Positions 303 through 20,000 of a DNA stretch of 20,000 nucleotides are shown piece after piece (the first letter of the stretch is position 1; every line of letters begins with the position of its first letter). The DNA is taken from contig NC_057718.1 of assembly GCF_004010195.1 (NCBI RefSeq), forward strand, positions 45,103,717 to 45,123,716. The letters are read 5' to 3'. Source of the DNA: Chiloscyllium plagiosum (lineage: Eukaryota). The notes under the pieces are model-generated. The model saw only the letters and a list, made by a program, of their open reading frames with translations, ran no database searches and was not told the DNA's origin. A program made the translations under genes and the position numbers.

Positions 303-463
303 TTTAAATTCACAGAATAGTCTGAAAAATAACTACATAGATTTGCAAAACTAAGTTGGCAGTGTCCTTTCCCCAAATTAATGGAATATTGTATTTTGAT
401 CATGCAATCATGCTATATTAAATAATAGTAAATCTAATTAAACATTTCTTTACCTCTCTATAG

Positions 464-608
464 GACAAGTTGAAAAATATCCTACAAAACCTGAGACATG
501 AGCTGCAAACAGATCTAACTGTTAGCTTCTCTGAATACAGGACAGAAGCAGAGAAAATTCTACTTCTCAGTAAAACATCTGACAGAGCACACAGAGCTGC
601 AGGAAAAC
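464..608 (+). CDS. Candidate exon of an unidentified gene, convergent with CENPF (DKLKNILQNLRHELQTDLTVSFSEYRTEAEKILLLSKTSDRAHRAAGK)
   Basis: Branch-like CTAAT at 434-438, polypyrimidine tract and TAG acceptor (AG 462-463), only one of three frames open, and a GTGAGT donor at 609. If unspliced, an in-frame TGA follows at 614-616. No homologue recognised. Confidence 0.4.
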
Positions 609-1607
609 GTGAGTGAAGCACACTGAAAGAGAACTCAGACCTGACTGACAATGAGAACATATATCCAAGAAAATGGCAAAAACAGAATGAGTTTGAAAAC
701 TTGAGGAAAAAACTCGCTATACAACTTTCTATAACAGATCAAGATTTCAAGTAACATGTTCACTCTGAAGATAAGTAGCAAGGATGTATAATATATCACC
801 TATCAAGATCACTGCGTTCATAATAGATACCCTAGATGACCAGTTCTTTTACCAGTTTCAGGAGATACCGAAGTAAAGCTTACTAAGGTCATTGAGACCT
901 ATCATTATCACTTTTCTGCCCTTTAGGTTTCAAATTTACTTGTAATTTATCAATTTCCAGTAATGAGTAGATGGTGAAACTTCCTGCTCCACTCATATAA
1001 CTCTGAAAAGATTATCTGAATGTTCTATTGAGCAATAAAAATGATTTATCTTCCAGCTACATTTCTTCCTTTTATTTGTGGAAGCAAAATTGTGAATTTG
1101 TTATAACTGAGGGACAACTTTAGCTTTATTATCTTAATACGCACTACATAATGACGCTTGCAAAAAGGATCCTAAGAAGTCTTCAATTCTTTTGATTTGT
1201 GAAGATTGTTTATTGGAGGATAGGGCTGCAAGGATGTTTTAGATTGTTGATGGCTGATATTTGCACACCAGCTTTCCCAGACCAGACAAACAAATAAATG
1301 GCTAACTTAAGCTTTGAGTAGAAACCATCTGTACCACAAGGAAGAAAGCATTTTCTCACTGCAAGACCGGTTCAAGTTGCCCATTACCTTACTAGCTGAA
1401 AGAACCTGGAAATAAACTGCTCCCTAATGAAATATGAACATACCAGCAAAGTGCCCCAAATTATGCGCACATTCATGGCAATTCATGTCCCTCACCTAGC
1501 CTCCATGATTGAGTTAAGCTTCATGTGGAGAAAGCAGAGTCTAATGATGACACAATGGGAGCAATTTTTACCTCCAACAATGTAATGTTGATTACTTGTA
1601 AATATAT

Positions 1608-1837: not shown

Positions 1838-1935
1838 AGGAGAACGTGAGGCCTTCAGATGCTGGAAATCAGAGTTGAGAGTGTGGTGCTGGAAAAGCAC
1901 AGCAGGTGAGGCAGAATCCAAGGAGCAGGAGAATC

Positions 1936-1963
1936 AACGTTTCAGGCATAAGCCCTTCATCAG
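1936..1963 (-). ncRNA. Minimal hammerhead-ribozyme-like motif in the PLE 3' terminal region
   Basis: Minus strand reads CTGATGA-A-GGGC-TTAT-GCCT-GAAA-C-GTT: core CUGANGA, stem II, GAAA and an NUH triplet. Helix I is weak; activity is untested. Confidence 0.6.
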
Positions 1964-2183
1964 GAGTAAGGCTTGTGAGCCAAGGCGGGGGGGGGGAGAG
2001 ATAAATNNNNNNGGGGGGGTGAAGCTTGGGGAAGGCAGCTGAGAATGCGATAAGTAGATGAAGGTGGGGGAAAAGGTGATCGGTTGGACAGGAGGGTGGA
2101 GCGGATAAATGGGAAAGACGATGGACAGGTCAAGAGGGCCGTGCCAGGTTGGAGGTGTGGAACTGGGATAAGATGGGGGGGAG

Positions 2184-3243
2184 CAGAAATGAGGAAACTG
2201 GCAAAATCCACATTAATCCCATGTAGTTGTAGGTTCCCAAGGCAGAAGATGAGGCGTTCTTCCTCCAGGCGTAGGGCGGTGAGGGTTTGGCAATGGAGGT
2301 CCAGGACCCGCATGTCCTTGGTAGAGTGGGAGGGGGAGTTGAAGTGTTCAGCCATGGAGCAGTGGGGTTGGTTGGTGTGGGTGTCCCAGGGATGTTCTCT
2401 GATACAATCTGCAATTTGGCGTCCTGTCTCCCCAATGTAGAGGAGACCACATCGGGTGCAATGGATAAGCAGTGGAGGTACAGGTAAATTTTTGTCAGTT
2501 GTGGGAGGATCTTTTGGGGCCTTGGATGGAGGTGAGGGGGGAAGTTTGGGTACAAGTTTTGCATTTCCTGCAGTGGCAGGGGAAAATGCCAGGAGTGGGG
2601 TGAGGCCTGGTAGAGGGCATGGATCTGACAAATGAGCCGCGGAGGGAATGGTCTCTCCAAAATGCTGATAGAGGTGGGGAGGGAAATATATCCCCAGAGA
2701 TGGTGATGGAGAGCTCCATGAAGGGGAGGGAGGTGTCTGAGATGATCCAGGTGAATTTGAGGTTGGGGTGAAAGGTGTTAGTGAAGTTGATGAACTGTTC
2801 AACCTCCTTGGAGCACGAAGTAGCACAATACAGTTATCAATGTAGTGGAGGAAAAGTTGCGGGATGGTGCCGGTGTAGCTGCGGAACATAGACTGTTCCA
2901 CGTACCCAACAAAGAGGCAGGCGTAGCTGGGGCCCATGCAGCCAGGCAGATATAGGGTAGGGTACTTGTTGGGATAGTGTGACAGGAAGAAAAGGAGGGT
3001 TTGGAGGCCTTCATCATGGCGGATAGATGTGTACAGGGACTGGATATCCAGGGTGAAGATAAGGCGTAGGGGGCCGGGGAAACAAACATCTTGGAGGAAG
3101 TGAAGGACATGAATGGTGTCCCAAATGTAGGTGGCGAGTTCCTGGACTAAGGGGGAGAGGATGGCATCAAGGTATGCAGAAGTGAGTTCAGTGGAACAGG
3201 AGAAGGCCGAGACAATGGGTCAATCGGGAAAGTCGGGTTTGTG
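2184..3243 (-). pseudogene. Disrupted PLE reverse transcriptase + GIY-YIG endonuclease ORF
   Basis: Motifs in shifting frames: HKPDFPD*PIVSAFSCSTELTSAYLDAILSPLVQ, RLIFTLDIQSLYTSIRHDEG, MGPSYACLFVGYVEQ...FLHYIDNCI (decayed YIDD), PGIFPCHCRKCKTC, CTRCGLLYIGETGRQIADCIREH, EEERLIFCLG. There are stops, frameshifts and internal deletions near 2940 and 2693. Confidence 0.92.
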
Positions 3244-3249
3244 GGCCCA

Positions 3250-4080
3250 CCTCCCACCCTATCTTCTGTAAAAACGCCATCCCCTATTCCCAATTCCTCC
3301 ACCTCTGCTGCATCTGTTCCCAGGATGGCCAATTCCACCAGAGAAAATCCCAGATGGCCGCCTTCTTCAAAGATCGCAATTTCCTCTCCCAAGTGGTCAA
3401 TGATGCCCTCCAGCGCATCTTCTCCACTTTCTGCACCTCCGCCCTTGAACCTCATCCCTCCCAATGCAACAAGGAGAGAATCCCCTAGTCCTCACCTTCC
3501 ACCCCACCAACCACTTATACATCGCATTATCCTATGCCACTTCCACCACCTACAAACAGACCCCACTGCTAGGGATTTATTTCCATCCTCACCCTTATCA
3601 GTGTTTTGGACAGTCCATTCCTTCCGCGACTCACTTGTCAGATCCACGTTCCCACACAAGCCCTCAACCCACTCCCGGTACCTTTCCCTGCCACTGCAGA
3701 AAGTGCAAAACCTGCACCCACACTTCCCCCCTCATCTCCGTCCAAGGCCCCAACGGATTCTTCCATATCCAACAGAAATTTACCTGTACCTCCACTAATG
3801 TCATCTACTGGATTTGTTGCACCCGATGTGGTTTCCTCTACTTCGGGGAAACAGGACGCCAACTTGCAGATTGTTTCAGAGAACATCTCTGGGACTCCTG
3901 CACTAACCAACCCTATTGGCTGAACACTTAAACTCCCCCTCCTACCCCACCAAGGACATGCAGGTCCTGGGTCTCCTCCATTGCCAAATGACGCATGGAG
4001 GAAGAATGCTTCATCTTCCGCCTTGGGATCCTACAACCACACGGGATTAATTAGGATTTCATCAGTTTCCTCATTTCCGC
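3250..4080 (+). pseudogene. Disrupted PLE RT thumb, Cys-rich linker and GIY-YIG endonuclease
   Basis: SHPIFCKNAIPYSQFLHLCCICSQD, PLVLTFHP, PGTFPCHCRKCKTC, FTCTSTNVIYWICCTRCGFLYFGETGRQLADCFREH; multiple frameshifts. Confidence 0.92.
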
Positions 4081-4411
4081 TCCCCCAACCTTATCTCAGT
4101 CCCAAACCTCCAACTCTGCACTGCCCTCTTAACCTGTCATTGTCTTTCCCAAACATCAGCTCCACCCACCTCTCCAACCTATCACCTTCTCCCCCACCTT
4201 CATCTACCTATCGCATTCTCAGCTACCTTCCCCCAAGCCCCATCCCCTCCCATTTATCTCTCAGCCACGCCACTACCTCCTCCCCAACAGCCCACAAGCT
4301 TCATGCCTGATGAAGGGCTTACGCTCAAAATATCAATTCTCCTGTTCCTCGGATGCTGCTTGACCTGCTGTACTTTTCCAGCACCACACTCTCAACTCAT
4401 CCCTTTCCTTT

Positions 4412-5273: not shown

Positions 5274-5378
5274 ATTACCACAGTGACTATATTTAAATAC
5301 TCAATAGCATTATGACAGTGACTAAATTTAAATACTCAATAGCATTACGACAGTGACTATATTTAAATGCTCAATAGC
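5274..5378 (+). repeat. 35-bp tandem repeat x3, within a probable decayed L2/DeuSINE-type 3' tail (~5265-5425)
   Basis: cagtgacta(t/a)atttaaat(a/g)ctcaatagc recurs at 5281, 5316 and 5351 (period 35, no unique spacers). It is followed by ataaagtgctttgagac...gtgct, resembling a recalled L2-like tail. Confidence 0.85.
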
Positions 5379-6812: not shown

Positions 6813-6973
6813 AAAGTGCTGGAAAATCTCAGCAGGTTTGGCTGCATCTGTGGAGAAAAATACAGAGCTAATCTTTCAAATCCAATAACTCACCTTAAAA
6901 GCATTGGACTTGAAACACTCCACAAATGCTGCCACACCTGCTAGATTTTCCAACATTTTCTGTGTTTTTTTTT
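6813..6973. mobile_element. Old palindromic repeat related to PLE termini (distinct subfamily)
   Basis: aaagtgctggaaaatctcagcaggtttggctgcatctgtggag is inversely repeated as ctccacaaatgctgccacacctgctagattttccaacatttt. It shares the gctggaaaa..cagcaggt..ggcagcatc motif with the younger PLE palindromes. Confidence 0.7.
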
Positions 6974-9046: not shown

Positions 9047-9348
9047 GACGCAGCACAGTGGCTCAGTGGTTTGCACTGCAGCCTCACAGCACCAGGATTC
9101 CAGGTTCGATTCCAGCCTTGGGTGACTGTGTGTGGAGTTTGCACATTCTCCCCGTGTCTGCATGGGTTTCCTCCGGGTGCTTAGATTTCCTCCCACAGTT
9201 CAAAAATGTGCAAGTCAGGTGAATTGGCCATGCTAAATTGCCCGTAGTGTTAGTCAGAGGGAAATGGGTCTGGGTGGTTACTCTTCGGAGGGTCGGTGTG
9301 GACTGGTTGGGCCGAAGGGCCTGTATCCACACTGTAGGGGATCTAATC
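9047..9348 (+). mobile_element. HE1-like V-SINE (tRNA-derived)
   Basis: A box TGGCTCAGTGG 9059-9069, B box GGTTCGATTCC 9103-9113, V domain tgtggagtttgcacattctccccgtgtctgc.tgggtttcctccggg, and a CR1-type tail gggccgaagggcctgt.tccacactgta. Confidence 0.92.
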
Positions 9349-13343: not shown

Positions 13344-14640
13344 CTAAAAAATCGTCATTGATAAAAAATTCTTCAATAATTGTTTAGGTACTTTTATTTT
13401 CCAAATAAATGTGTTCATTCAAGTTTGTAAACCATTTAATAACTTCTTAGATATTAAAAAAAAATTCTCTCCTTCCTAGGCTCAAGAAAATCACATGATG
13501 AAGAATAGAACTAGAATTAATCTCAAAACACTTTAAAAAGCATCTAGGTAGAGCTTTTTCCCAAGTAAACTTTATTCTTAAAATTTGTAAAAGTTATATA
13601 CAAACATTTTGACTTGAAAATTCAATGTCAAAATACAGCAGGTTCCATTTTTATGTGTCTCAATACAACTTTCGGCCCAATTATCTGTTTCTTTCAATCT
13701 ATTCCTATTCATAAAGAATAAATTAATCTCCAGTTAATGTATTACATTGCATACAACTGTATACAATTAATTACAATTAGTTCACAGCAGAGGTGGGTCA
13801 TGAAGTGCTGCAATTCAGCATTTATATACAGTACTTGATAAAAGTTTATAGAGGAAGTACTGAAATGACATTGGTTCAAATGCTAATAGATCACAGTCCA
13901 GCAGCAGGGAGAGGCGCCTTTTGGCCCAAACTGATCTGTGCCGACCAATATGTCCATCCACACTAACTCCATTTCCCTGCACTTGGCCCATATACTTCTA
14001 AACCTTTCCTGTCCAAGCATTTGTTCAAATGCCTTTTAAATATTGTTAATGGACCCACATCAACCACCCCTCTGCTGGCAGCTCATTCCATACACGTACC
14101 ACCCTCTATGTAAACAGGTTGCCCCTCAGGTTCCCATTTATTCTTTCCCCTCTTACCTTAAACTGATGCTCTCTAGTCCTCGAATCCCCAACCTTGGGAA
14201 AAAGACTGAGAGTATTCAAACTATCCATGCCTCTCATGATCTTATACAATTCTATTAGATCCCCTCTCAGTCTCCTATTCTCTAAAGAAAAAAGTCCTAA
14301 CTTGTCCAACCTCTCCCTCTAACTCAGTTCATGAAGTTCTGGCAACATCCCGGTAAATGTCTTCTGCATTCTTTCCAGTTTAATAACAACCTTCCTACAG
14401 CAAGGTGACCAAACGAACACAATACTCCCCCAGTGCAGCCTCACCAATGTCCTGTACAACTGCAACATAATTTCCCAACTTCTATACTCAAATCCCTGAA
14501 TGATTCAGGCCAGTATGCCAAAAGCCTTCTTCACTACCTTTGAGGAAAAAGTGAGGTCTGCAGATGCTGGAGATCAGAGATGGAAATGTGTTGCTGGAAA
14601 AGCGCAGCAGGTCAGGCAGCATCTAGGGAACAGGAGAATC

Positions 14641-14668
14641 GACGTTTCGGGCATTAGCCCTTCTTCAG
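14641..14668 (-). ncRNA. Minimal hammerhead-ribozyme-like motif (mirror copy, on the CENPF sense strand)
   Basis: Minus strand reads CTGAAGA-A-GGGC-TAAT-GCCC-GAAA-C-GTC. Confidence 0.6.
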
Positions 14669-14674
14669 CCATTC

Positions 14675-14702
14675 CTGAAGAAGGGCTAATGCCCGAAACG
14701 TC
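14675..14702 (+). ncRNA. Minimal hammerhead-ribozyme-like motif
   Basis: CTGAAGA-A-GGGC-TAAT-GCCC-GAAA-C-GTC: intact core, perfect 4-bp stem II, loopless palindromic ACGT helix III and a GUC triplet. Confidence 0.65.
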
Positions 14703-15706
14703 GATTCTCCTGTTCCCTAGATGCTGCCTGACCTGCTGCACTTTTCCAGCAACACATTTCCATCTTCTTCACTACCTTGTCTATCCGTGACTCCACTTTC
14801 AAAGAACCATGCACCTGAACGCCAAGGTCCTTCTGTTCCACTACATTCCCGAAGGACCTACCTCTCACCATGAAACTCCTACCTTGATTTGACTTTCCAA
14901 AATGCAACACCTTACACTTATATACATTAAACTCCATTTGCCATTTCTCAGCCCACTTCCCCAGCTGATCAAGGTTCTGCTGCAATTTCTAATAACCTTC
15001 CTCACTGTCCTCGATGCTGCCTGTGTTAGTGTCATTTGCAATGTGCTAAGCTTTTCAGTTCGTTGCCCAGAGATTGCAAACAATTAATTAGCCCGAGTGC
15101 TTGTTTGTAAACATGTCACATTCACTATATTAGAATATGCATGATCGTGGGCACTAGGAAGGATTATTTAGTATAAGCCTTTTCCAGTAATTGTGAACAG
15201 AGGAAAGCTAGAGAAAGAGACGGGCGGTCAGATTTTTATTTTTAAAAATCACTGCAAATGTGACCCTCTATAGGCTTCAAAACAGAATGGAACTGGGGAA
15301 AAATATTTTGATAAAGCAGGACAATTCTGTTATTTGTAGTAGGTAGCATTTTCACTCCTTTGTACTATTACATATCATTCTAATCATCTAGTAAATCTGA
15401 TAATACTTTCTGCTCTTTACAATTGCAAACATTAAAATTAAACTATTTTGCGTTTCTTTTCTGTTCCTGTTTACTGAACAGGTGCATACTTCCAATGAGA
15501 ATATCCAGGTCAAATCATACCCTTGAGTTAGACTATTGTACAATGTTTTTATTGGGCAGCATGCACATTAAACTAAAGGTATGCCTGTCAGATTTGTATA
15601 GCATTAAAACCCTGAACTATTTGAACACTTGTCTGTGGTCTGTTTACATCAATAGAAGTCTTAAGTGTAGAAATAAGCTGCTATCCAGACTTCACTTAAG
15701 TTTTAC

Positions 15707-17766: not shown

Positions 17767-19775
17767 ACAGACAATAGACAATAGATGCAGGAGTAAGCCA
17801 TTCTGCCCTTCGAACCAGCACCACCATTCAGTATGATCATGGCTGATCATCCTCAATCAGTATCCTGTTCCTGATTTATCCCCATAGCCTTGATTCCACT
17901 ATCCTTAAGACCTCTATCCAACTCTTTCTTGAAAGTATCCAGAGACTTGGCCTCCACAGCCTTCTAAGCAGAGCATTCCATACACCCACCACTCTCTGGG
18001 TGAAGAAGTTTCTCCTCAACACTGTTCTAAGTGGCCTACCCCTTGTTTTTAAACTGTGTCCTTTGGTTCAGGACTCACCCATCAGCAGAAACATGTTTCC
18101 TGCATCCAGAGTGTCCATTCCTTTAATAATCTTATACGTCTCAATCAGATCCCCTCTCAGACTTCTAAACTCAAGCGTATACAAGCCCAGTCGCTCCCAA
18201 TCTTTCAGTGTAAGGTAGTCCTGCCATTCAGGGAATTGACCTCGTGAACCTACGCTGCACTCCCCCAGTAGCCAGAATGTCTTTCCTCAAATTTGGAGAC
18301 CAAAACTGCTCACAATATTCCAGGTGCGGTCTCACCAGGGTCTTATACAGCTGCAGAAGGACCTCTTTGCTTCTATACTCAATTTCTCTTGTTATGAAGG
18401 CCAGCATGCTATTAGCTTTCTTTACTGCCTGCTGTACCTGATGCTTGCTTTCATTGACTGATGTACAAGAACACCTAGGTCTCGTTGTATTACCCCTTTA
18501 CCTAACTTGACTCCATTTAGGTAGTAATCTGCCTTCCTGTTCTTTCCACCAAAGTGTATAACCATACATTTATCCACATTAAACTGCATCTGCCTTGCAT
18601 TTGTCCACTCACCTAGCCTGTCCAGGTCACCCTGTAATCTCCTAACATCCTCCTCACATTTCACCCTGCCACCCAGCTTTGTATCATCAGCAAATTTGCT
18701 AATATTACTTTTAATACCTTCATCTATATCATTAATGTACATTGTAAAAGCTGCGGTCCCAGCACTGATCCCTGCGGCACACCACTGGTCACTGCCTGCC
18801 ATTCCGAAAGAGAACAGTTTATCACTACTCTTTGTTTCCTGTCAGCCAACCAATTTTCAATCCATGTCAGTATTTTGCGCCTAATACCATGTGCCCTAAT
18901 TTTGCTCACTAACCTCCTATGTGGGACTTTATCAAAGGCTTTCTGAAAGTCCAGGTATACTACATCCACTGGATCGCCCTTGTCCATCTTCAGAGTTACA
19001 TCCTCAAAAAATTCCAGAAGATTAGTCAAGCATGAGTTCCCCTTCATAAATTCATGCTGACTCTGACCTATCTTGTTACTGCTATCCAGATGTGTCGTAA
19101 TTTCATCCTTTATAATTGACTCCAGCATTTTTCCCACCACTGAGGTCAGACTAACTGGTCTATAATTCTGTTTTCTCTCTCCCTCCTTTCTTAAAACATA
19201 GGACAACATTATCCACTCTCCAATCCACAGGAACTGATCCTGAATCTATAGAACATTGGAAAATGATCACCAATGCATCCACGATTTCTAGAGCCACCTC
19301 CTTCAGTACCCTGGGATGCAGACCATCAGGTCCCGGGGACTTATCAGACTTCAGACCTAACAGTCTCTCCAACACCATTTCCTGCCTAATATAAATTCCC
19401 TTCAGTTCAGGTCCTTCAGCCACTATTACATCTGGGAGATTAGATCTGTCTTCACTGAGGAAGACACGAGCAAAGTACCAATTCAACTCTTCTGCCATTT
19501 CTTTGTTCCCTGTAATAAATTCACCCGTTTCGGTCTTCAAGGGCCCAATTTTAGTCTTAACCATTTTTTTCCTTTTCACATACCTAAAAAAGCCTTTACT
19601 ATCCTCCTTTATATTTTTGGCCAGTTTACCTTCGTACCTTATTTTTTCTTTGCGTATTACCTTTTTAGTTATCCTCTGATGTTCTTTAAAAGCTTCCCAG
19701 TCCTCCAATTTCCCACTCATCTTTGCTATGTTATACTTTTTCCCTTTTGTCTTTATATGGTCCTTAACTTCCCTT
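17767..19775 (-). mobile_element. CR1 LINE, relatively young, frameshifted ORF2 (RT domain), in a CENPF intron
   Basis: KSPGPDGLHPRVLKE, NYRPVSLTSVVGKMLE, VYLDFQKAFDKVPH, SGVPQGSVLGP, SKFADDTKLG across three frames. The 3' tail carries (TCTATTG)n-like repeats at ~17767-17785. Confidence 0.97.
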
Positions 19776-20000
19776 GGGGAGAAAGTGAGGGCTGCAGATG
19801 CTGGAGATCAGAGCTGAAAATGTGTTGCTGGAAAAGCGCAGCAGGTCAGGCAGCATCCAAGGAACAGGAGAATCGACGTTTCAGGCATAAGCCCTTCTTA
19901 CTTTCCTCATTCCTGAAGAAGGACTTATGCCCAAAACGTCGATTCTCCTGTTCCTTGGATGCTGCCTGACCTGCTGCGCTTTTCCAGCAACACATTTTCA
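19776..20000. mobile_element. Young palindromic PLE-terminus insertion in CR1; runs off the window end
   Basis: Tail ggggagaaagtgagggctgcagatgctggagatcag, then arms 19815-19899 / 19916-20000 (85 bp, 3 mismatches, two at one CpG), 16-nt spacer. The hammerhead core at 19913-19940 has GAAA>AAAA. Confidence 0.92.

What the first reader, a model, noticed from the sequence alone, without database searches (positions are those of the whole stretch)
14578..14765. 91-bp hairpin with back-to-back hammerhead cores inside a CENPF intron
Seen: intact cores on both strands (14675-14702 + and 14641-14668 -), 6 nt apart, so transcription in either direction yields one ribozyme core plus its antisense. Helix III is a loopless ACGT palindrome and helix I is only ~2 bp. 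Inference: in CENPF pre-mRNA the long dsRNA stem should sequester the core, making the insertion self-neutralising. It would also be a substrate for ADAR or Dicer/Drosha and a possible source of small RNAs against the PLE family. Five such palindromes in 20 kb suggest a large genome-wide hairpin-RNA load.
Basis: partly seen in the sequence, partly recalled or inferred. Interest (0 to 1): 0.7.

Follow-up and report, generated by a model that had tools for sequence, protein, structure and literature searches.

The report
Head-to-head Penelope stub in CENPF intron
This hairpin is a young 223-base mirror-image stub of a very common Penelope-type jumping gene inside a CENPF intron, likely a harmless by-product of two short DNA copies of the element's RNA start joined head to head rather than a designed ribozyme switch.

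Summary
The hairpin is real: 91-bp arms, 99% complementary, in a spliced CENPF intron. The whole insertion is 14541-14763 with a 15-bp target duplication, inside an older CR1 fragment. It consists of two hammerhead-bearing ends of a Penelope-like element (PLE) joined head to head, one carrying the 36-nt 'tail'. That layout is in print. It is very common here: 5,372 exact back-to-back loci, about 160,000 short palindromes by sampling. Sister copies point to a mechanism: 61 of 63 have exactly one tail, 5' ends pile up 3-4 nt before the core with an excess extra G, and duplications peak at 15 bp. This fits both cut strands priming on uncut RNA and running off its capped start. Sequestration of the core is physically sound (about 45 kcal/mol) but probably moot: the core on the CENPF strand lacks helix I, and such minimal hammerheads barely cut alone. 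Only one of the five palindromes has two intact cores. Editing was inconclusive; small RNAs were untested. The scan noted the same element and mechanism before, on other DNA of this and other genomes.

The parts
14526..14540 (+). left copy of the 15-bp target-site duplication
   Evidence: exact repeat of 14764-14778
14541..14577 (-). PLE 'tail' (about 36 nt), present on this arm only; 14541 is one extra base
   Evidence: left arm matches reference positions q1-127, right arm q1-91; same asymmetry in the 30 closest loci
14578..14668 (-). left arm: PLE end from core base C3 onward, same sense as CENPF pre-mRNA
   Evidence: inverted repeat I3
14641..14668 (-). minimal hammerhead core with helix II and loopless helix III; 5' strand of helix I missing
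   Evidence: strict scan, upstream bases GAATGG
14669..14674 (+). 6-nt loop: 5 nt of the right arm's natural leader plus one junction base; the same junction recurs at unrelated loci
14675..14702 (+). minimal hammerhead core with 2-bp helix I, antisense to CENPF
14675..14763 (+). right arm, tail-less; 14764-14765 fit both the element and the target
14764..14778 (+). right copy of the target-site duplication
13940..15010 (-). older CR1-type LINE fragment that received the insertion (family label recalled; related RT remnants at 18425-19245)
   Evidence: repeat depth and contigs that skip the insertion; RVT_1 hits; direct repeats D6, D8
13344..15706 (-). CENPF intron, 2363 nt; the insertion lies about 940 nt from the donor and 1200 nt from the acceptor
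   Evidence: spliced contig, depth 214.6, run X15; boundaries; PF10490 in a downstream exon
1838..4388 (.). older long head-to-head insertion of the same kind with RT and GIY-YIG-like remnants; links the ends to a PLE open reading frame
   Evidence: inverted repeats I1, I2, I4-I6, I14, I16; translations

Best explanation
The hairpin is a young head-to-head insertion of two short ends of an endonuclease-bearing Penelope-like retroelement, likely made when both strands of a 15-nt staggered cut primed reverse transcription on the element's uncut RNA and ran off its capped start, and it likely does nothing for CENPF. Shown: anatomy, target duplication, one-sided tail, abundance, pile-up of 5' ends, excess G. 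Inferred: the element's endonuclease nicks both strands about 15 nt apart. One nick primes at the far internal start (about q126, giving the tail) and the other at the near start (about q88). Both cDNAs reach the RNA 5' end 4-5 nt before the hammerhead core. Host end-joining trims and fuses them, often through short microhomology. Predicted: in CENPF pre-mRNA the stem zips as it is made, the core never folds, the intron is spliced and degraded, and the stem may be A-to-I edited.
For: In 152 blind 10-kb stretches (1.467 Mb without N): 312 arms; 67 of 68 adjacent arm pairs are head-to-head; 61 of 63 classifiable pairs carry exactly one tail (p 4e-16 against 50%); duplications of 13-17 nt in 31 of 67, mode 15. 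3' ends are bimodal near q88-96 and q125-127. 5' ends: 90 of 312 at -1 to -6, with 31 at -3 and 23 at -4, then 5 and 4. Genome-wide exact counts fall from 40,338 (core) to 24,047 (-4), 14,192 (-6) and 10,780 (-9), while 29 of 30 copies that reach -9 go on to -36 or further. G before -4: 3,955 against T 747; 2,747 G remain after two partner-derived contexts are removed; the ratio is 3.7 against 1.5 expected from the partner strand and 0.7 from flanks. The tail-less arm reaches further 5' in 32 pairs and the tailed arm in 23, so neither is always the template. Junctions and right ends vary between loci. A same-strand end lies downstream of PLE RT in 11 of 19 RT loci. In vitro, an anole PLE cuts and extends both strands, starts at two internal sites, and uses uncleaved RNA (PMC11167929). 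CENPF is spliced across the intron.
Against: No intact tandem (pLTR-ORF-pLTR) source element was found: the long frames fetched were mostly N gaps, so an RNA starting at -4 is inferred, not seen. A at -5 was not counted genome-wide, other partner-derived contexts were not removed, and in the blind sample unpaired arms gave only 7 G against 2 A. The anole work saw no difference in start site between strands in vitro, unlike the strict one-tail rule here. That element is Poseidon-type while this one looks Neptune-type. The drop from -6 to -9 (24%) is more than a sharp single start predicts. 13 of 312 arms end at q28-31 near the ribozyme cut, a slight excess. Harmlessness to CENPF rests on one spliced contig of unknown genotype.
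Confidence: 0.72

Rival explanations
1. One cDNA folds back on itself (self-priming) and is copied into the mirror arm; the tail is then set by endonuclease resolution.
For: Both arms share subfamily variants: q14 in 30 of 30 loci (56% expected if independent) and q86 in 30 of 30 (77%). Self-priming was proposed for rotifer PLE palindromes (PMC3846280) and endonuclease resolution for the tail (PMC8557442).
Against: In 32 of 61 one-tail pairs the tail-less arm holds the extra 5' sequence, so it would be the first strand and could not supply the tail. Shared variants also follow from one RNA copied twice, one source locus, or subfamilies active at different times.
Confidence: 0.12
2. The 220-bp palindrome moves as a unit, a non-autonomous MITE-like or retrozyme-like element copied from a few master hairpins.
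For: Nearly identical copies exist (L002 is 100% over 216 nt in the search) and the same loop junction recurs at several loci.
Against: The same junction occurs on different subfamily backgrounds; right ends vary; junctions are diverse in the 50 unselected loci listed; arm lengths form a continuum up to kilobases; no direct-tandem neighbours among 68 adjacent pairs, so no retrozyme layout.
Confidence: 0.08
3. One reading: the mirror arm is retained or favoured because it silences an otherwise harmful intronic ribozyme and feeds ADAR or small-RNA defence against the family.
For: Sequestration is thermodynamically certain. All 6 A>G / T>C sites listed skew between read directions in the mirror pattern expected of editing. 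Lizard Penelope and palindromic frog repeats are heavily edited (PMC5625713); rotifer Penelopes give antisense small RNAs (PMC3846280).
Against: The CENPF-strand core lacks helix I. 0 of 39 short palindromes in the first sample kept two strict cores. Arms diverge with age. 5 of 9 control substitutions skew as strongly, and 13 of 16 A positions show under 2% A>G. Minimal PLE hammerheads are inactive or protein-dependent alone.
Confidence: 0.08

Closest known systems
Insertion units of endonuclease-positive PLEs with inverted pLTR, one-sided 30-40-bp tail and TSD (Adineta Pen2a, PMC3846280; PMC8557442 Fig. 2; D. virilis Penelope, PMC2377424)
   Same: Head-to-head inverted ends, tail at one end only, target duplication, hammerhead in the end repeat.
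   Different: Here nearly all ORF sequence is absent (223 bp), the duplication is about 15 bp rather than 8-10, copies number about 10^5, and 5' ends pile up at one site; I found no such statistics in the passages read.
Minimal hammerheads (min-HHR) of metazoan PLEs (Cervera and De la Pena 2014, PMC4209133)
   Same: Core boxes, extra base between 9 and 10.1, G10.1-C11.1, palindromic loopless helix III; opposite-strand pairs 100-700 bp apart were already noted in Schistosoma.
   Different: Helix II is 4 bp and helix I 2 bp (like the D. virilis variant); the pair is 6 nt apart; activity not assayed.
Anole Poseidon PAc (Frangieh et al. 2024, PMC11167929)
   Same: Two internal RT start sites that delimit the tail, the far one about 120 nt after the hammerhead; both strands cut and extended; uncleaved RNA used.
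   Different: The shark-type element shows a C-x-C-x-x-C-x-x-C linker before a VIY...YIG-like motif, which points to Neptune/Nematis; in the genome the two ends use different start sites almost without exception.
Palindromic Harbinger repeats of Xenopus tropicalis as ADAR targets (Porath et al. 2017, PMC5625713)
   Same: About 200-bp self-folding repeats in high copy number.
   Different: Those are DNA-transposon derivatives with shown hyper-editing; editing is not shown here.
Conserved intronic hammerheads of amniotes (RECK and others; review PMC6155905)
   Same: Hammerhead motif in an intron of a protein-coding gene.
   Different: Those are canonical and conserved; this is a young, minimal copy buried in dsRNA.

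Membership tests
EN+ Penelope-like element insertion | [quoted passage not shown] | tested here: met
   Same-strand end downstream of RT in 11 of 19 loci; DKG and RT motifs in L175/L178; RVT_1 E 7e-6, below its gathering score; GIY-YIG-like motif read by eye at 3449-3931, with no Pfam hit
EN+ Penelope-like element insertion | Inverted 5'-truncated copy joined head to head | tested here: met
   67 of 68 adjacent pairs
EN+ Penelope-like element insertion | 30-40-bp tail at one end | tested here: met
   36 nt here; 61 of 63 pairs
EN+ Penelope-like element insertion | Target-site duplication | tested here: met
   15 bp; mode 15 in the sample
EN+ Penelope-like element insertion | Full-length partial tandem (pLTR-ORF-pLTR) source copy | tested here: inconclusive
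   25 RT loci examined; long frames were N gaps and no 5' pLTR ran into an ORF
Neptune/Nematis clade | Zn-finger-like linker between RT and EN | tested here: inconclusive
   Cys-rich linker seen in an older copy; no tree built
PLE minimal hammerhead | Core boxes, helix II, extra base after A9, palindromic helix III | tested here: met
   both strands
PLE minimal hammerhead | Helix I | tested here: inconclusive
   2 bp on the + strand; absent on the CENPF (-) strand
PLE minimal hammerhead | Self-cleavage as a dimer or with the element's protein | not testable with these tools
   needs an in vitro assay; only 13 of 312 arms end near the cut site
Non-LTR retrozyme | Direct tandem units, each with a hammerhead | tested here: not met
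   0 of 68 adjacent pairs in direct orientation
MITE / TIR element | Fixed symmetric termini and a short fixed duplication | tested here: not met
   asymmetric ends, variable junctions, 13-17-bp duplications
miRNA precursor | Rfam family match at gathering score or a processed small RNA | tested here: not met
   mir-4662 at 51 bits against 97; small RNA not tested

The most novel reading that the evidence does not exclude
These stubs are a genome-wide fossil record of the unsolved PLE integration step: an asymmetric enzyme dimer makes a 15-nt staggered break, assigns one RT start site to each strand, and copies a capped, uncut RNA leader to its end twice, like a strong-stop product. That would explain the inverted ends, the one-sided tail and the mass of 90-130-nt fragments at once, and it leaves some tens of thousands of near-perfect hairpins as a dsRNA load.
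Probability: 0.55. Interest if true: 0.6.

Novelty: new member of a known kind. Interest (0 to 1): 0.36.

Why it matters
The single CENPF copy matters little. The family matters because how PLEs make inverted ends and tails is called undefined in PMC8557442, and the strict one-tail rule, the 15-nt stagger and the pile-up of 5' ends give sharp predictions for the in vitro system that now exists (PMC11167929). If the stems are edited, these stubs could also be a main ADAR substrate in this lineage, as palindromic repeats are in frog.

Tried and rejected
Rfam: no hammerhead hit; miRNA hits are generic hairpin scores. RNA runs: no RNA holder listed for the CENPF exon. Run X20 gave 0 reads and X19 had no depth in exons or unique intron, so locus-specific expression or editing could not be tested. 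Family-level editing in one single-cell run was inconclusive: library direction was not calibrated, a few expressed loci dominate, and reads under 85% alike were excluded, which drops hyper-edited reads. Full-length source element: 19 RT loci plus 6 fetched stretches gave only broken or gapped frames. Helix II covariation in 121 sampled cores: almost none, mostly decay. Arm-to-arm homogenisation: arms were closer to each other than to the best other arm in only 4 of 48 pairs (that comparison favours the best-of-many side). A first regex for arm concordance failed and was redone by alignment. Lunse et al. on dimer cleavage was not held and is known only through review passages. Paper searches for PLE palindromes in sharks, solo pLTR or strong-stop products, and an extra G from the cap returned nothing that describes this family or the run-off model; the library lacks most subscription papers and Repbase/Dfam, and no supplements were read. 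The intronic versus intergenic distribution could not be tested without annotation.

Full report
Observation. The minus strand folds at -204 kcal/mol, z -23, and none of 200 shuffles folds as well. A strict scan finds a minimal hammerhead core at 14675 (+) and 14668 (-). The host gene is CENPF on the minus strand (PF10490, E 5.6e-10). A contig of run X15 joins the flanking exons across a 2363-nt GT..AG intron, 13344-15706. The organism is probably a shark; that rests on recalled repeat types and on earlier scan notes, not on a call.

True extent. The left arm runs on for another 36 nt to 14542. A 15-bp duplication flanks the unit at 14526-14540 and 14764-14778, so the insertion is 14541-14763. 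It interrupts an older CR1-type fragment (label recalled). The two arms differ at one base, and a copy on another chromosome matches over 216 nt, so the insertion is young.

What it is. The same end sequence closes a 2.5-kb head-to-head insertion at 1838-4388 that holds RT and GIY-YIG-like remnants. It lies downstream of PLE RT on the same strand in 11 of 19 RT loci; these RTs show the DKG motif and weak RVT_1 hits. Inverted 5'-truncated copies, a 30-40-bp tail at one end and target duplications are described for PLEs (passages of PMC3846280; PMC8557442; PMC2377424; PMC8969392). Minimal hammerheads in PLE ends, including close opposite-strand pairs, are in PMC4209133 (abstract, results and discussion read).

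Abundance. An exact 28-nt core occurs 39,625 times and exact back-to-back 12-nt arms within 11 nt at 5,372 loci; reversed-pattern controls gave 0. I took 152 10-kb stretches at round coordinates on the 44 largest contigs (1.467 Mb without N; the 8 stretches beside the window left out; unplaced scaffolds not sampled). They hold 312 arms and 67 short palindromes, which scales to about 160,000 (95% range 126,000-206,000). Most are worn: of 48 pairs with at least 40 aligned bases, 22 have at least 60 bp at 90% and 8 at least 80 bp at 95%. In the first 92 stretches 0 of 39 kept two strict cores and 4 kept one. Of the five palindromes in the window only this one has two intact cores.

How it is probably made. 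Of 68 adjacent arm pairs 67 are head-to-head. Of 63 classifiable pairs 61 have exactly one tail (2 have two; 4 more could not be classed). Duplications are 13-17 nt in 31 of 67 with a mode of 15. The 3' ends cluster at two sites about 36 nt apart, as for the two internal RT starts of the anole element, which also cuts and extends both strands and uses uncleaved RNA (PMC11167929 main text read). The 5' ends pile up just before the core: 90 of 312 at -1 to -6, with 31 at -3, 23 at -4, then 5 and 4. Exact genome counts fall from 40,338 to 24,047, 14,192 and 10,780 as the pattern is extended to -4, -6 and -9, yet 29 of 30 copies that reach -9 continue to -36 or beyond. The A at -4 sits in an initiator-like motif (consensus recalled). 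Where the natural base at -5 is C, G occurs 3,955 times and T 747 times; 2,747 G remain after two partner-derived contexts are removed. The ratio of 3.7 exceeds 1.5 (partner strand) and 0.7 (flanks). An extra G as the mark of a copied cap is recalled knowledge; my search for a source found none. Against this: A at -5 was not counted, the blind sample gave only 7 G against 2 A among unpaired arms, no intact source element was found, and the anole study saw no strand difference in start site.

Rivals. Fold-back of one cDNA fits the shared variants of the two arms (q14 30 of 30, q86 30 of 30 in the 30 closest loci). It does not fit the 32 of 61 pairs where the tail-less arm holds the extra 5' sequence, against 23 the other way and 6 ties. 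A mobile master hairpin fits the recurring loop but not its presence on different subfamily backgrounds or the diverse junctions in the 50 loci listed. Retrozymes need direct tandems (bioRxiv 10.64898/2026.07.22.740005, first part and passages); none were seen.

Sequestration holds physically: helix II has a pair probability near 5e-15 in the hairpin, and holding the core open costs 45 kcal/mol. The antisense arm is also made first in either direction. But the core that CENPF pre-mRNA carries starts at C3 and has no helix I. Minimal PLE hammerheads showed no monomer cleavage and low dimer cleavage, or needed the element's protein (review passages). There is probably nothing to neutralise, and 136 of 312 arms persist unpaired. 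For editing, I laid one single-cell run on 48 nt of an arm (1,291 reads from the whole family). All 3 A>G sites were higher in one read direction and all 3 T>C sites in the other, the mirror pattern of A-to-I editing. However, 5 of 9 control changes skewed at p under 0.001, 13 of 16 A positions stayed under 2%, three of the six sites are common genomic variants, and a few loci dominate the reads. This is inconclusive. The prior is fair, since lizard Penelope and palindromic frog repeats are heavily edited (passages of PMC5625713). Small RNAs were not testable.

Novelty and verdict. The insertion is a new member of a known kind. The statistics behind the two-ended, run-off model were not found in print in eight searches, within a library that lacks most subscription papers and repeat databases; no supplements were read. 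A sequence look-up in the scan's notes found nothing, but word and place look-ups showed that the scan had noted the same element and the same model on other DNA. My counts were made before I saw those notes, and they are not independent support. Interest 0.36: ordinary as a CENPF feature, useful as a testable record of PLE integration.

Noticed in passing
window 6815-6953: A degraded palindrome of a second, related end family with about 40-nt arms at 80% and no hammerhead core.
   Followed up: partly
window 1838-4388: 2.5-kb head-to-head PLE insertion with broken RT and endonuclease remnants; each arm has its own extent and deletions.
   Followed up: partly
window 19778-20000, L031:1-100: Another young palindrome with both cores mutated; its right end runs into an assembly gap. 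Many long PLE copies fetched are likewise filled with N, so this assembly probably under-represents long palindromes.
   Followed up: partly
window 5274-5378: Three 35-nt tandem copies at 91-100% identity.
   Followed up: no
window 9049-9348: tRNA-derived SINE-like sequence (resembles shark HE1, recalled) in the last CENPF intron.
   Followed up: no
window 17770-19775: CR1-type LINE fragment on the minus strand with RVT_1 hits; the palindrome at 19778 inserted at its edge.
   Followed up: partly
L004, L006, L007, L015, L017, L028 (centre of each locus): Loop junctions carry short templated copies of helix II sequence, like microhomology-mediated end-joining scars; the same scars recur at unrelated loci.
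   Followed up: partly
run X19 laid on window 14593-14640: A few highly expressed transcripts carrying this element dominate the reads (loose ends of 109 and 165 reads with 0.93 and 0.83 agreement); one shows 21% A>G at 14600 in one direction only.
   Followed up: no
window 418-738 (-): A 106-codon open stretch beyond the CENPF 3' end, unexplained.
   Followed up: no
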